Assembly (NCBI RefSeq): GCF_030013595.1
Contig: NZ_CP122768.1
Length of the DNA: 64,000 nucleotides
Strand: one strand, 5' to 3'
Source of the DNA: Escherichia coli
GTDB lineage: Bacteria > Pseudomonadota > Gammaproteobacteria > Enterobacterales > Enterobacteriaceae
A program made the position numbers and the translations under genes. Each line of letters starts with the position of its first letter. Within the stretch, counting starts at the first letter, position 1. The notes beneath the pieces are model-generated. The model saw only the letters and a list, made by a program, of their open reading frames with translations. It had not been told where the DNA came from and made no database searches. Positions 2 to 2,123 of this stretch are shown here, piece after piece.

Positions 2-976
2 GTGGACAAAGCACAGGGCAACCCGCTCACCCAGCGAATTCGCGGCGTGCGGCAGGTGATTTCTGACGGCAACGGCGTGCTGCTGCCGGAGATCCGCATT
101 CGGGAAAACTTCCGCCTCAAGCCCAGCCAGTACGCCATATTCATCAACGGCATTAAGGCCGATGAAGCGGATATTCCGGCGGATAAACTGATGGCGCTGC
201 CCTCCAGCGAAACCTACGGCGAGATAGAAGGCGTGCTGGGGAACGACCCGGCGTACGGGATGCCGGTCACCTGGATCCAGCCCGCGCAGAAGGCGAAGGC
301 GCTGAATATGGGGTATCAGGTGATCGACAGCGCCAGCGTGATTGCCACCCATGTGAACAAGATTGTGCGCAGCTATATTCCTGATTTGTTTAACTATGAC
401 GACATCACGCAGTTACACAATCGCCTGTCATCGATGGCACCACGGCTGGCGGAAGATTTGAGCGCGGCACTCAATTACAGCCAGTTGTTGAAAGTGTACC
501 GGGCGCTGCTGACCGAAGGCGTTTCCCTGCGCGATATTGTCACCATCGCCACCGTGCTGGTCGCCAGTAGCACAGTGACCAAAGATCATATCCTGCTGGC
601 GGCCGATGTGCGCCTGGCATTGCGGCGCAGCATTACCCATCCGTTCGTTCGCAAGCAGGAGCTGGCGGTGTATACGCTGAATAATGAACTGGAAAATCTG
701 CTGACCAACGTGGTGAATCAGGCGCAACAGGGCGGGAAAGTGATGCTCGACAGCGTGCCGGTCGATCCGAATATGCTCAACCAGTTCCAGAGTACGATGC
801 CGCAGGTAAAAGAGCAGATGAAAGCGGCGGGGAAAGACCCGGTGCTGCTGGTGCCGCCGCAGTTGCGTCCTTTGCTGGCGCGTTATGCAAGGTTGTTTGC
901 GCCGGGGCTGCATGTGCTGTCGTATAACGAAGTGCCGGACGAGCTGGAGTTGAAGATTATGGGGGCGTTGAGTTGA
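2..976 (+). CDS. lfhA: FlhA-like flagellar export protein, C-terminal part (Flag-2 remnant); the ORF is open to the window start, so the 5' part is outside the window
   Basis: The ORF track protein resembles the FlhA C-terminal cytoplasmic domain. It sits next to yafL, as lfhA does in E. coli. Confidence 0.6.
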   Translation: MDKAQGNPLTQRIRGVRQVISDGNGVLLPEIRIRENFRLKPSQYAIFINGIKADEADIPADKLMALPSSETYGEIEGVLGNDPAYGMPVTWIQPAQKAKALNMGYQVIDSASVIATHVNKIVRSYIPDLFNYDDITQLHNRLSSMAPRLAEDLSAALNYSQLLKVYRALLTEGVSLRDIVTIATVLVASSTVTKDHILLAADVRLALRRSITHPFVRKQELAVYTLNNELENLLTNVVNQAQQGGKVMLDSVPVDPNMLNQFQSTMPQVKEQMKAAGKDPVLLVPPQLRPLLARYARLFAPGLHVLSYNEVPDELELKIMGALS

Positions 977-1004
977 TGGGGGAGACTATATAAGGTCTCG
1001 GACT

Positions 1005-1038
1005 GTCCCCTCGCCCCTTTGGGGAGAGGGAGAAAAAC
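1005..1038. repeat. GC-rich imperfect palindrome (CCCTCGCCCC / GGGGAGAGGG) ending in GGGAGAGGGAGAAAA
   Basis: Read directly from the sequence. It shares a 15-nt core with the element at 3679-3720. Confidence 0.4.
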
Positions 1039-1073
1039 GTGTACGACTTTAACTTTTTCGCAGTATTGCCGTC

Positions 1074-1832
1074 CTACAAAATCGTCTCTTCCGTCAAAAT
1101 CCTGCGCGCGCCTAAAAAATGATCCTGCCAGAAAGGTTCAGCTAACCGACTTACCCGAATGGTTTCCCCGGTGCGCGGCGACTCGATAAACTGACCGTCT
1201 CCCAGATACACGCCCATATGATCGGCAATCTCGCGGCTGTGGATATGGAAAAACAGCAAATCTCCCCGGCGCAGGTCGTTGTTCGCCACAATCGTTGCCC
1301 GATGGTAGTGATACATCTCATTGGCCGTGCGCGGGAGCTTCGCCTCGAGGATCTTGTTGTAGGCATAAAAAACCAACCCGCTACAGTCGAAGCCTTGATC
1401 GGGCCGCGTGCCGCCCCAGACGTAAGGCTTGCCAAGCTGCTGCTCCAGGCGGTGAATCGCCACTTCGGTGATGTTGTGTAGATGGTCGCTGCTTAAGAAA
1501 TGGTTGTTCTCCGCCAGCGCCTGCCAGCGTCTGTCACTTGCCTTGAGCGGCGCAGGAAACCATTCTGGATGCTGTTTTATCTGTTCGCGGTTGTGCTGGC
1601 GCAGCGCCTTTCTGCTTTCGGCATTGCCTTCCACAATATAGCTGGCCTGTTTTTTCAGATGGGTTTGGTACTGTTTTAATAAACGCGCACGGTTTTGCAT
1701 CCGCTGGCGGGCGGCGTAGCTGAAAGAGATATGTGATGTGGTGGCGCTGGCGAGTAAAGGGAGCAAAACGCATAACGAAAACACGCCTGGATGCAGAAAT
1801 CTGCCGAGCAAGAACGAAGACATGAAGGACAT
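1074..1832 (-). CDS. yafL: NlpC/P60-family peptidase lipoprotein YafL
   Basis: 252-aa ORF with a hydrophobic N-terminus and the NlpC/P60 Cys motif (DCSGLVFYAY). Confidence 0.8.
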   Translation of the reverse strand: MSFMSSFLLGRFLHPGVFSLCVLLPLLASATTSHISFSYAARQRMQNRARLLKQYQTHLKKQASYIVEGNAESRKALRQHNREQIKQHPEWFPAPLKASDRRWQALAENNHFLSSDHLHNITEVAIHRLEQQLGKPYVWGGTRPDQGFDCSGLVFYAYNKILEAKLPRTANEMYHYHRATIVANNDLRRGDLLFFHIHSREIADHMGVYLGDGQFIESPRTGETIRVSRLAEPFWQDHFLGARRILTEETIL

Positions 1833-2123
1833 AAACCGGCTGAATGAAGGTGAGAATTTTAAAAGACCAGAGGAGTAAACGGGATTATTAATTGCTTATT
1901 TGCATATTACTATTGAGGTTTCATAATCTTAGGAAATAAATGATACATGCGCTTTTCGGACTATTGAAAACTGCCCCTGTGCTAAATTTGTAAACCCTGC
2001 GCCGACAGGCTTGCGTAAAACTCTTTTGGTGATAATGTGAGCCTTCCCAATCCAGACTATTCCGATTTGGGATCCATTTTGCCGTCCTGGCGTGTGTAAC
2101 CGTTTTATCAAGGAATAAGCAGT

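What the first reader, a model, noticed from the sequence alone, without database searches (positions are those of the whole stretch)
976..2123. Region lacks dinJ-yafQ and rayT found at this position in K-12
From my recollection of the K-12 MG1655 map, the toxin-antitoxin pair yafQ-dinJ lies between yafK and yafL, and the REP-associated tyrosine transposase rayT (yafM) lies between yafL and lfhA. Here the yafL-yafK spacer is only about 290 bp with no convincing ORF, and the lfhA-yafL spacer is 97 bp containing only a palindromic repeat. This strain therefore appears to lack both modules.
Basis: partly seen in the sequence, partly recalled or inferred. Interest (0 to 1): 0.35.

Follow-up and report, generated by a model that had tools for sequence, protein, structure and literature searches.

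The report
Common E. coli variant lacking dinJ-yafQ, rayT
This E. coli strain really does lack the dinJ-yafQ toxin-antitoxin pair and the rayT transposase that K-12 has next to yafL, but about one in ten sequenced E. coli lack both, so the finding is real and ordinary.

Summary
The window runs lfhA(3' end)–97 bp–yafL–291 bp–yafK, and K-12 runs lfhA–rayT–yafL–dinJ–yafQ–yafK. No DinJ, YafQ or RayT homolog occurs anywhere in the 64 kb.

Both absences are common polymorphisms among 5,426 complete E. coli genomes. 38% carry the same dinJ-yafQ-free yafK–yafL spacer, 34% have no rayT, and about 10% lack both.

The dinJ-yafQ-free spacer is collinear with E. albertii, cryptic Escherichia clades and Citrobacter. 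It is therefore the ancestral state. The K-12 allele is a derived 837-bp replacement of 231 bp, and it also overwrote the yafL promoter and signal-peptide codons.

The lfhA–yafL spacer has at least four alleles:
- rayT with flanking BIMEs, 66%
- hicAB, 27%
- a BoxC (PIT/TMECO) allele, 2.3%
- BIME-only or other, the rest

The window carries the rare BoxC allele. Its palindrome is not a REP. It is what remains of an inverted BoxC pair (161 bp in strain PCN033 and in Pseudocitrobacter vendiensis) after a 64-bp deletion between 10-bp direct repeats.

RAYT-less E. coli and the uneven distribution of toxin-antitoxin modules are already published. Interest is low, and the allele details are minor additions.

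The parts
2..976 (+). 3' end (324 codons) of lfhA, the Flag-2 flhA paralogue. It runs off the left edge of the window.
   Evidence: ORF. It is 95.4% identical to K-12 lfhA. Close relatives NRZ14408 and PCN033 carry a full-length 2094-bp flhA with Flag-2 genes upstream.
977..1073 (.). The 97-bp lfhA–yafL spacer, in its rare BoxC allele. K-12 has about 899 bp here (rayT plus BIMEs).
   Evidence: It is 100% identical in NRZ14408. It equals the 161-bp spacer of E. coli PCN033 and Pseudocitrobacter vendiensis minus 64 bp. This junction occurs in 126 of 5,426 genomes.
1008..1030 (.). Hairpin CCCTCGCCCCTTTGGGGAGAGGG. It holds the first two blocks of a BoxC/TMECO triplex motif, and the third block is missing.
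   Evidence: The two-block pattern matches here, and the full three-block consensus does not. The consensus is from PMC4666352. REP seed searches find nothing here.
1074..1832 (-). yafL, an intact NlpC/P60 (C40) peptidase of 252 aa. PGAP in near-identical genomes starts it at the ATG at 1823, giving 249 aa.
   Evidence: From residue ~28 onward it is 92.6% identical to K-12 YafL. The signal peptide differs from K-12.
1753..1983 (.). Allele-specific 231 bp covering the yafL signal-peptide codons and the distal half of the yafL–yafK spacer. This is the unoccupied, ancestral allele. K-12 has 837 bp here (yafQ, dinJ, a 209-bp spacer and a different yafL 5' end).
   Evidence: Sharp breakpoints. Collinear with E. 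albertii, Escherichia sp. E1V33, E. coli SCPM-O-B-8794 and Citrobacter. Present in 2,084 of 5,426 genomes.
1833..2123 (.). The 291-bp divergent yafL–yafK intergenic region with no gene in it.
   Evidence: The proximal 140 bp (1984-2123) is shared with K-12 at ~98% identity.
2124..2864 (+). yafK (dpaA), a YkuD-fold protein that marks the right boundary of the locus.
   Evidence: (100% amino-acid identity to K-12).
3679..3713 (-). For context: a complete three-block BoxC/TMECO element in the yafJ–gmhA spacer. K-12 has a BIME at this position.

Best explanation
The window shows two neighbouring intergenic presence/absence polymorphisms that are common in E. coli. It does not show a strain-specific event.

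(1) yafK–yafL. The window carries the ancestral, unoccupied spacer. In the lineage leading to K-12 and about 62% of sequenced E. coli, an 837-bp segment replaced 231 bp of it. The incoming segment holds a plasmid-related RelB/RelE-type toxin-antitoxin module, dinJ-yafQ, with its promoter. It also holds about 220 bp that now supply the yafL upstream region and signal-peptide codons. Both alleles then spread by homologous recombination in the flanking core genes.

(2) lfhA–yafL. The spacer between these two convergent genes is a multi-allelic site. In Citrobacter it is only a 37-38-bp terminator hairpin. In Escherichia it holds rayT plus BIMEs, or hicAB, or BIMEs alone, or an inverted pair of BoxC elements. 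The window has the BoxC allele, shortened from 161 to 97 bp by a slipped 64-bp deletion between the 10-bp repeats GGGGAGAGGG and GGGGCGAGGG.

No BIME or rayT remnant is left, and the BoxC allele has its own unique flanks. So the absence of rayT here comes from inheriting a whole different spacer allele, not from an in-place deletion. That allele most likely replaced a rayT-bearing one long ago.

What is shown: the gene content, the breakpoints, the allele frequencies and the outgroup states. What is inferred: the direction of change at the rayT site, spread by recombination, and absence of the genes from the rest of this strain's genome.
For: - K-12 gene order and the two replacement intervals.
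- No DinJ, YafQ or RayT homolog in 64 kb, and no remnant in the spacers.
- The two yafK–yafL alleles partition the genomes almost perfectly: 2,084 empty plus 3,340 with dinJ-yafQ makes 5,424 of 5,426.
- The empty allele aligns along its whole length with E. albertii, E1V33, SCPM-O-B-8794 and, more loosely, nine Citrobacter/Phytobacter loci. None of these has dinJ-yafQ.
- Within E. coli the empty allele itself has sub-lineages 7-8% apart, so it is old.
- Homologs of the toxin-antitoxin core, at ~68% DNA identity, sit on ~40-kb enterobacterial plasmids.
- lfhA–yafL census: the rayT coding sequence is in 3,575 genomes and is single-copy, hicAB is in 1,480, and the BoxC junction is in 126. The sum does not exceed the total, as expected if the alleles are mutually exclusive.
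- 2,056 genomes have both modules, so about 567 (10%) have neither.
- Spacer sequences of all alleles, including the Citrobacter hairpin.
- The 161-bp parent allele in PCN033.
- BoxC identity.
- Published background: some E. coli have lost the RAYT gene; toxin-antitoxin modules are horizontally acquired and inserted between core genes, with the yafL–209 bp–dinJ-yafQ–155 bp–yafK layout tabulated; BoxC/TMECO loci are unusually variable between strains.
Against: - The direction of change at the rayT site is not resolved. rayT sits at this exact site in E. albertii, two cryptic Escherichia clades and Pseudocitrobacter faecalis, which argues that rayT is old here. Yet the BoxC allele is also shared across genera (P. 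vendiensis), and Citrobacter has neither.
- The ancestral-state argument rests on one representative genome per outgroup species.
- Genome counts come from a clinically biased set of complete genomes, and they rest on BLAST coverage thresholds, not on per-genome inspection.
- The donor of the K-12 837-bp segment was not identified.
- I could not check the rest of this strain's genome for relocated copies.
Confidence: 0.85

Rival explanations
1. This lineage once had dinJ-yafQ between yafK and yafL and lost it by a recent deletion.
For: Chromosomal toxin-antitoxin modules are known to decay and be lost, as cited. 62% of genomes have the module, so naive majority rule would call it the default state.
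Against: The window does not hold a shortened K-12 sequence. It holds 231 bp of different sequence that is homologous to E. albertii, cryptic clades and Citrobacter, including the yafL signal-peptide codons. There is no remnant of dinJ, yafQ or their promoter. All Citrobacter, Phytobacter and E. albertii loci lack the module.
Confidence: 0.05
2. The BoxC allele is a rayT-free lineage of the lfhA–yafL spacer as old as, or older than, the rayT-occupied one. On this reading the ancestors of this strain never had rayT at this site.
For: Citrobacter has only a terminator hairpin here, so rayT occupancy is derived at some level. The BoxC allele has unique flanking sequence with no BIME trace. It is shared with Pseudocitrobacter vendiensis, whose yafL and lfhA branch near the base of the Escherichia sequences. 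lfhA and yafL are more divergent between the window and K-12 (94-95%) than the neighbouring genes are (98%), as expected for long-separated allele classes.
Against: rayT sits at this site in every non-coli Escherichia representative sampled and in 66% of E. coli. The BoxC allele is in only 2.3%. RAYTs are reported to be vertically inherited at a fixed position within a species. Parsimony therefore favours a rayT-bearing Escherichia ancestor and a later replacement.
Confidence: 0.3
3. The modules are present in this strain but lie elsewhere in its genome, so the strain does not truly lack them.
For: Only 64 kb of the genome can be seen. A few genomes have two rayT or dinJ-yafQ places, or plasmid copies.
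Against: Across 5,426 genomes both modules are essentially single-copy, with a median of 1 and a maximum of 2 places per genome. The listed hits lie next to yafL and flhA. The plasmid copies at near-identity are chromosome segments that also carry yafL. The allele counts at each site sum to no more than the number of genomes.
Confidence: 0.04

Closest known systems
dinJ-yafQ type II toxin-antitoxin module of E. coli K-12 (RelB/DinJ antitoxin, RelE/YafQ ribosome-dependent mRNA interferase)
   Same: Same chromosomal address, between yafK/dpaA and yafL. The flanking core genes are 94-100% identical to K-12.
   Different: The module is absent here, and the ancestral 231-bp spacer allele sits in its place. 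Uneven distribution and horizontal acquisition of E. coli toxin-antitoxin modules are already published (Fiedoruk 2015 and Ramisetty & Santhosh 2016, as cited).
RayT (YafM/TnpA-REP) Group 2 RAYT with its flanking REP/BIME clusters
   Same: Same address, between yafL and lfhA. This is the fixed position of the single-copy RAYT in E. coli, E. albertii and cryptic clades.
   Different: There is no rayT and no REP in the spacer. E. coli strains without a RAYT gene are documented and have smaller REPIN populations (PMC8049555; bioRxiv 10.1101/2021.07.10.451892).
BoxC / PIT / TMECO intrastrand-triplex repeat (Holder et al. 2015, PMC4666352)
   Same: The spacer palindrome matches the first two blocks, CCCTCNCCC-N3-6-GGGNGAGGG. 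It is intergenic, like all 23 K-12 copies. It also sits at a locus that varies strongly between strains, as that paper reports for TMECO loci.
   Different: The third block (N3-GGGNGAGGG) is missing, so the element cannot form the three-stranded fold. It is a deletion derivative of an inverted pair of complete elements seen in PCN033 and P. vendiensis.
hicAB toxin-antitoxin allele of the same lfhA–yafL spacer
   Same: It occupies exactly the same spacer, abutting the same two stop codons, in 27% of complete E. coli genomes.
   Different: It is not present in the window. It is listed to show that the site is a multi-allelic insertion hotspot.

Membership tests
DinJ-YafQ (RelB/RelE-type) type II toxin-antitoxin module | Adjacent small antitoxin and toxin ORFs homologous to DinJ and YafQ. 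| tested here: not met
   tblastn of K-12 DinJ and YafQ against the whole window gives a best E of 1.9-3.9. The only ORFs in the spacer have no Pfam match. Near-identical genomes have no gene annotated there.
RAYT/REP system | A Y1 (HUH) REP-associated tyrosine transposase gene. | tested here: not met
   tblastn of K-12 RayT against the window gives a best E of 0.31. The 97-bp spacer cannot hold a 165-codon gene.
RAYT/REP system | REP/BIME palindromes (GCCGGATGCGGCG...CGCCTTATCCGGCCTAC type) flanking the gene position. | tested here: not met
   The REPIN seed GATGCGGCGTGAACGCCTTAT with up to 3 mismatches finds 0 hits in the window. REP regular expressions find none in 977-1073. K-12, E. albertii and B2-type spacers are full of them.
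BoxC / PIT / TMECO repeat | First two blocks, CCCTCNCCC-N3-6-GGGNGAGGG (the hairpin part). | tested here: met
   Exact match at 1008-1030; 0 expected by chance.
BoxC / PIT / TMECO repeat | Third purine block, N3-GGGNGAGGG, which completes the intrastrand triplex motif. | tested here: not met
   The full consensus matches only at 3679-3713, not in the lfhA–yafL spacer. The third block is present in the 161-bp parent allele.
BoxC / PIT / TMECO repeat | Intergenic location at a strain-variable locus. | tested here: met
   It lies between two convergent stop codons. At least four alleles occur at this site. The reported property is in PMC4666352.
BoxC / PIT / TMECO repeat | Forms an intrastrand DNA triplex. 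| not testable with these tools
   Triplex formation was shown only in vitro for complete elements. The truncated copy lacks the third strand.

The most novel reading that the evidence does not exclude
Two details may be undescribed.

(a) The lfhA–yafL spacer behaves as a cassette site. Its mutually exclusive alleles (rayT+BIME, hicAB, an inverted BoxC pair, BIME-only) all abut the same two stop codons. Both the rayT and the BoxC alleles are shared between Escherichia and Pseudocitrobacter. The site may therefore be a long-lived, cross-genus polymorphism.

(b) The K-12-type dinJ-yafQ segment did not simply insert. It overwrote the native yafL promoter and signal peptide, so YafL in 62% of E. 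coli is a chimera expressed from a region next to the dinJ promoter.

The BoxC-allele genomes would also be a natural set for testing REPIN decay after RAYT absence.
Probability: 0.35. Interest if true: 0.3.

Novelty: already known. Interest (0 to 1): 0.12.

Why it matters
The finding matters little in itself. It shows that K-12 is not the reference state for this neighbourhood.

- dinJ-yafQ is a later arrival that about 38% of sequenced strains never received.
- rayT is missing from about a third of strains.

This matters in three practical ways.
- Annotation transfer from K-12 will not fit these strains.
- Toxin-antitoxin deletion studies are affected, because the dinJ-yafQ allele also changes the 5' end of yafL and possibly the transcription of yafK.
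- RAYT-less strains can serve as natural controls for REPIN dynamics.

The allele census and the outgroup polarity are small, checkable additions to published work.

Tried and rejected
- **Remnant search.** blastn-short (word size 7) of both spacers against the K-12 modules found only the flanking gene ends and chance 8-9-mers.
- **Rfam on 900-2200 at E ≤ 1.** The only hit was a sub-threshold 'Antizyme_FSE' match (20.4 bits against a gathering score of 40, E 0.2) lying on the BoxC hairpin. I rejected it as chance.
- **RNA fold of the 97-bp spacer.** The z-score was -1.87, which is unremarkable apart from the hairpin.
- **Promoter/terminator scan of 900-2250.** Counts were close to the shuffled expectation and were not used.
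- **First palindrome pattern.** It was mis-specified and returned 0 hits. It was corrected.
- **REP remnant hypothesis.** I tested whether the spacer palindrome is a REP left by rayT excision, and rejected it.
- **Plasmid search for the donor of the 837-bp K-12 segment.** It found only near-identical chromosome-derived segments that also carry yafL (in records labelled E. coli K-12 or laboratory culture, among others), and ~68%-identical toxin-antitoxin cores. No donor for the yafL-proximal 220 bp was found.
- **REP scarcity and rayT absence.** I considered that the shortage of REPs in the window is tied to the absence of rayT. This is not supported as a simple link. NRZ14408 has the same BoxC allele, yet it has a REP with an IS1397 insertion in the yafJ–gmhA spacer, where the window has BoxC.
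- **Per-genome cross-tabulation by inspection.** Listings are capped, so this was not possible. I derived the 2×2 table from coverage counts instead.

Full report
**What is in the window**

Positions 1-4400 read as follows:
- lfhA 3' end, 2..976 (+)
- a 97-bp spacer, 977-1073
- yafL, 1074..1832 (-), an intact NlpC/P60 peptidase
- a 291-bp spacer, 1833-2123
- yafK/dpaA, 2124..2864 (+)
- yafJ (-), a short spacer, gmhA (-), then fadE (+)

The DNA is E. coli. It is 97-98.6% identical to K-12 across the syntenic parts of the window, and up to 99.9% identical to other complete E. coli genomes.

**Check of the recollection**

Alignment of the window to K-12 leaves two gaps.
- Window 1753-1983 (231 bp) faces 837 bp of K-12. 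That K-12 stretch holds yafQ, dinJ, the 209-bp dinJ–yafL spacer and the first ~24 codons of yafL.
- Window 972-1068 faces ~896 bp of K-12, which holds rayT and the BIME clusters on both sides of it.

The breakpoints are sharp, and identity is essentially perfect immediately outside them. Nothing resembling DinJ, YafQ or RayT is encoded anywhere in the 64 kb (best E 0.31). No DNA remnant of either module survives in the spacers. The two ORFs that overlap the 291-bp spacer have no Pfam match, and no gene is annotated there in near-identical genomes.

**How common it is**

All counts are among 5,426 complete E. coli genomes.

| Feature | Genomes |
|---|---|
| The window's 224-bp allele-specific core of the yafK–yafL spacer | 2,084 (38%) |
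| K-12 dinJ-yafQ segment | 3,340 (62%) |
| rayT coding sequence (single copy) | 3,575 (66%) |
| K-12 stretch spanning dinJ-yafQ, yafL and rayT, covered ≥80% | 2,056 |

The two yafK–yafL alleles together account for 5,424 genomes. By subtraction from the last row, about 1,284 genomes have dinJ-yafQ only, about 1,519 have rayT only, and about 567 (10%) have neither, like this window.

**Polarity at the yafK–yafL site**

A scan of one genome per bacterial species returned yafL loci from the following:
- E. albertii
- two cryptic Escherichia lineages
- a divergent E. coli
- three Pseudocitrobacter
- about ten Citrobacter
- Kluyvera
- Phytobacter

Only Escherichia sp. MOD1-EC7003 has dinJ-yafQ. The window's spacer aligns end to end with E. 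albertii, E1V33 and SCPM-O-B-8794, and more loosely with Citrobacter. The alignment includes the yafL start and signal-peptide codons: MSFMSSFLLGRFLHPGVFSLCVLLPLLASA in the window against MSLPSIPSFVLSGLLLICLPFSSFASA in K-12.

The unoccupied allele is therefore ancestral. The K-12 allele is a derived replacement that also brought a new upstream region and signal peptide for yafL. Within E. coli the empty allele has sub-lineages 7-8% apart, so it is old. The toxin-antitoxin core has ~68%-identical relatives on ~40-kb enterobacterial plasmids, consistent with a mobile origin. The literature already treats E. coli toxin-antitoxin modules as horizontally acquired inserts between core genes, and it tabulates this exact layout.

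**The lfhA–yafL site**

This spacer has at least four alleles, and all of them abut the two convergent stop codons.

| Allele | Genomes or examples |
|---|---|
| rayT flanked by BIMEs | 3,575 |
| hicAB, or hicB alone | 1,480 |
| BoxC allele | 126 |
| Remainder (~245), including a BIME-only form | e.g. strain 25DN |

Citrobacter has only a 37-38-bp GC-rich hairpin, presumably a bidirectional terminator.

The window's 97 bp is identical to that of NRZ14408. It equals the 161-bp spacer of E. coli PCN033 and of Pseudocitrobacter vendiensis, minus 64 internal bp bounded by GGGGAGAGGG and GGGGCGAGGG. The 161-bp form is an inverted pair of complete BoxC elements. BoxC, also called PIT or TMECO, has the consensus CCCTCNCCC-N3-6-GGGNGAGGG-N3-GGGNGAGGG and is reported to mark unusually variable intergenic loci (PMC4666352). 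After the deletion, the window keeps only a two-block hairpin at 1008-1030. This hairpin is not a REP.

**Polarity at the rayT site**

rayT sits here in E. albertii, both cryptic clades and P. faecalis. A rayT-bearing Escherichia ancestor is therefore the parsimonious reading, with the BoxC allele replacing it later.

Several facts show the BoxC allele is itself old and was not produced by a recent in-place deletion.
- It has unique flanks with no BIME trace.
- It is shared with P. vendiensis.
- lfhA and yafL are more diverged between the window and K-12 (94-95%) than the neighbouring genes are (98%).

I rate 'old replacement of a rayT allele' somewhat above 'parallel rayT-free lineage', but I cannot settle it here. 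E. coli strains without a RAYT gene, and their smaller REPIN populations, are already published.

**Verdict**

The observation and the interpretation hold, but this is a well-known kind of accessory-gene polymorphism seen in a sizeable minority of strains. The modest new points are these:
- the ancestral polarity of the empty yafK–yafL allele
- the chimeric 5' end of yafL in K-12-type strains
- the multi-allelic nature of the lfhA–yafL spacer
- the identification of the palindrome as a truncated BoxC, not a REP

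Noticed in passing
window 8479-23003: A 14.5-kb segment next to tRNA-Asp (aspV) has no K-12 counterpart. K-12 has yafT, ykfM, yafU and yafF here. The segment encodes type VI secretion genes (TssB/VipA, a ClpV-like AAA+ ATPase, ImpE, TssF, ImpA/TssA). An IS66-family element at about 9108-11720 appears to truncate tssC, leaving only 154 codons of VipB. The nearest relative, HCP5S3_I2, diverges from the window at 9077 and has a VgrG–Rhs island with a SymE toxin instead.
   Followed up: partly
window 3656-3722 (BoxC at 3679-3713): The yafJ–gmhA spacer holds a complete three-block BoxC/TMECO element. K-12 has a 151-bp BIME at this position. NRZ14408 has a REP there with an IS1397 inserted in its loop. 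So a second spacer within 3 kb also swaps between repeat families.
   Followed up: partly
window 1-64000 against K-12 196,066-249,333: REP-type motifs are scarce in the window. One REP regular expression gives 1 hit in the window and 10 in the syntenic K-12 stretch. The published 21-bp REPIN seed gives 0 hits even with 3 mismatches. The K-12 BIME between nlpE and yaeF is absent: 24 bp at window 44064-44088 faces 195 bp in K-12. This fits the published report of fewer REPINs in RAYT-less E. coli, but the sample is far too small to test it.
   Followed up: partly
L001 (K-12) 5947-6783, facing window 1753-1983: The K-12 dinJ-yafQ segment includes the first ~24 codons of yafL. K-12 YafL therefore has a signal peptide unrelated at the DNA level to the one in the window, E. 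albertii and Citrobacter. Both start with TATGTCCTT. The donor of this yafL-proximal ~220 bp was not found.
   Followed up: partly
L005 (Pseudocitrobacter faecalis) and L006 (P. vendiensis): Pseudocitrobacter carries an Escherichia-like lfhA–yafL region. It is 93-94% (lfhA) and 90.5% (yafL) identical in DNA to the window, whereas Citrobacter is 75-82% identical. yafK and yafJ are not next to it. One species has the rayT allele (RayT 92.7% identical to K-12) and the other has the 161-bp BoxC allele. The BoxC spacer flanks differ from the window at 1 of 105 positions, which is less diverged than the flanking genes. This suggests transfer between genera or a shared old polymorphism.
   Followed up: partly
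L003 900-1660 and L023 2578-3065 (same site as window 977-1073): A hicAB toxin-antitoxin pair occupies the lfhA–yafL spacer in 1,480 of 5,426 E. coli genomes. About 110 of these retain only hicB. In O26:H11 FWSEC0001 it coexists with dinJ-yafQ on the other side of yafL.
   Followed up: partly
window 27468-28238 (-): yafE is 256 aa here, with an intact N-terminal SAM-binding motif region. K-12 yafE is annotated at 207 aa, and the window has ~195 bp extra at the yafD–yafE junction. This suggests a K-12 deletion that removed the yafE 5' end.
   Followed up: no
left edge of the window; L002 1-6077 and L027 1-1777: The closest relatives with the same BoxC allele (NRZ14408, PCN033) have a full-length flhA/lfhA, and NRZ14408 shows further Flag-2 genes (fliM/N, fliPQR, flhB) upstream. 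The rayT (K-12 and the record labelled 042), hicB (EBJ003) and BIME-only (25DN) examples all have the lafU–lfhA deletion remnant. The BoxC allele may therefore travel with an intact Flag-2 cluster. The window itself ends inside lfhA, so this cannot be checked here.
   Followed up: no
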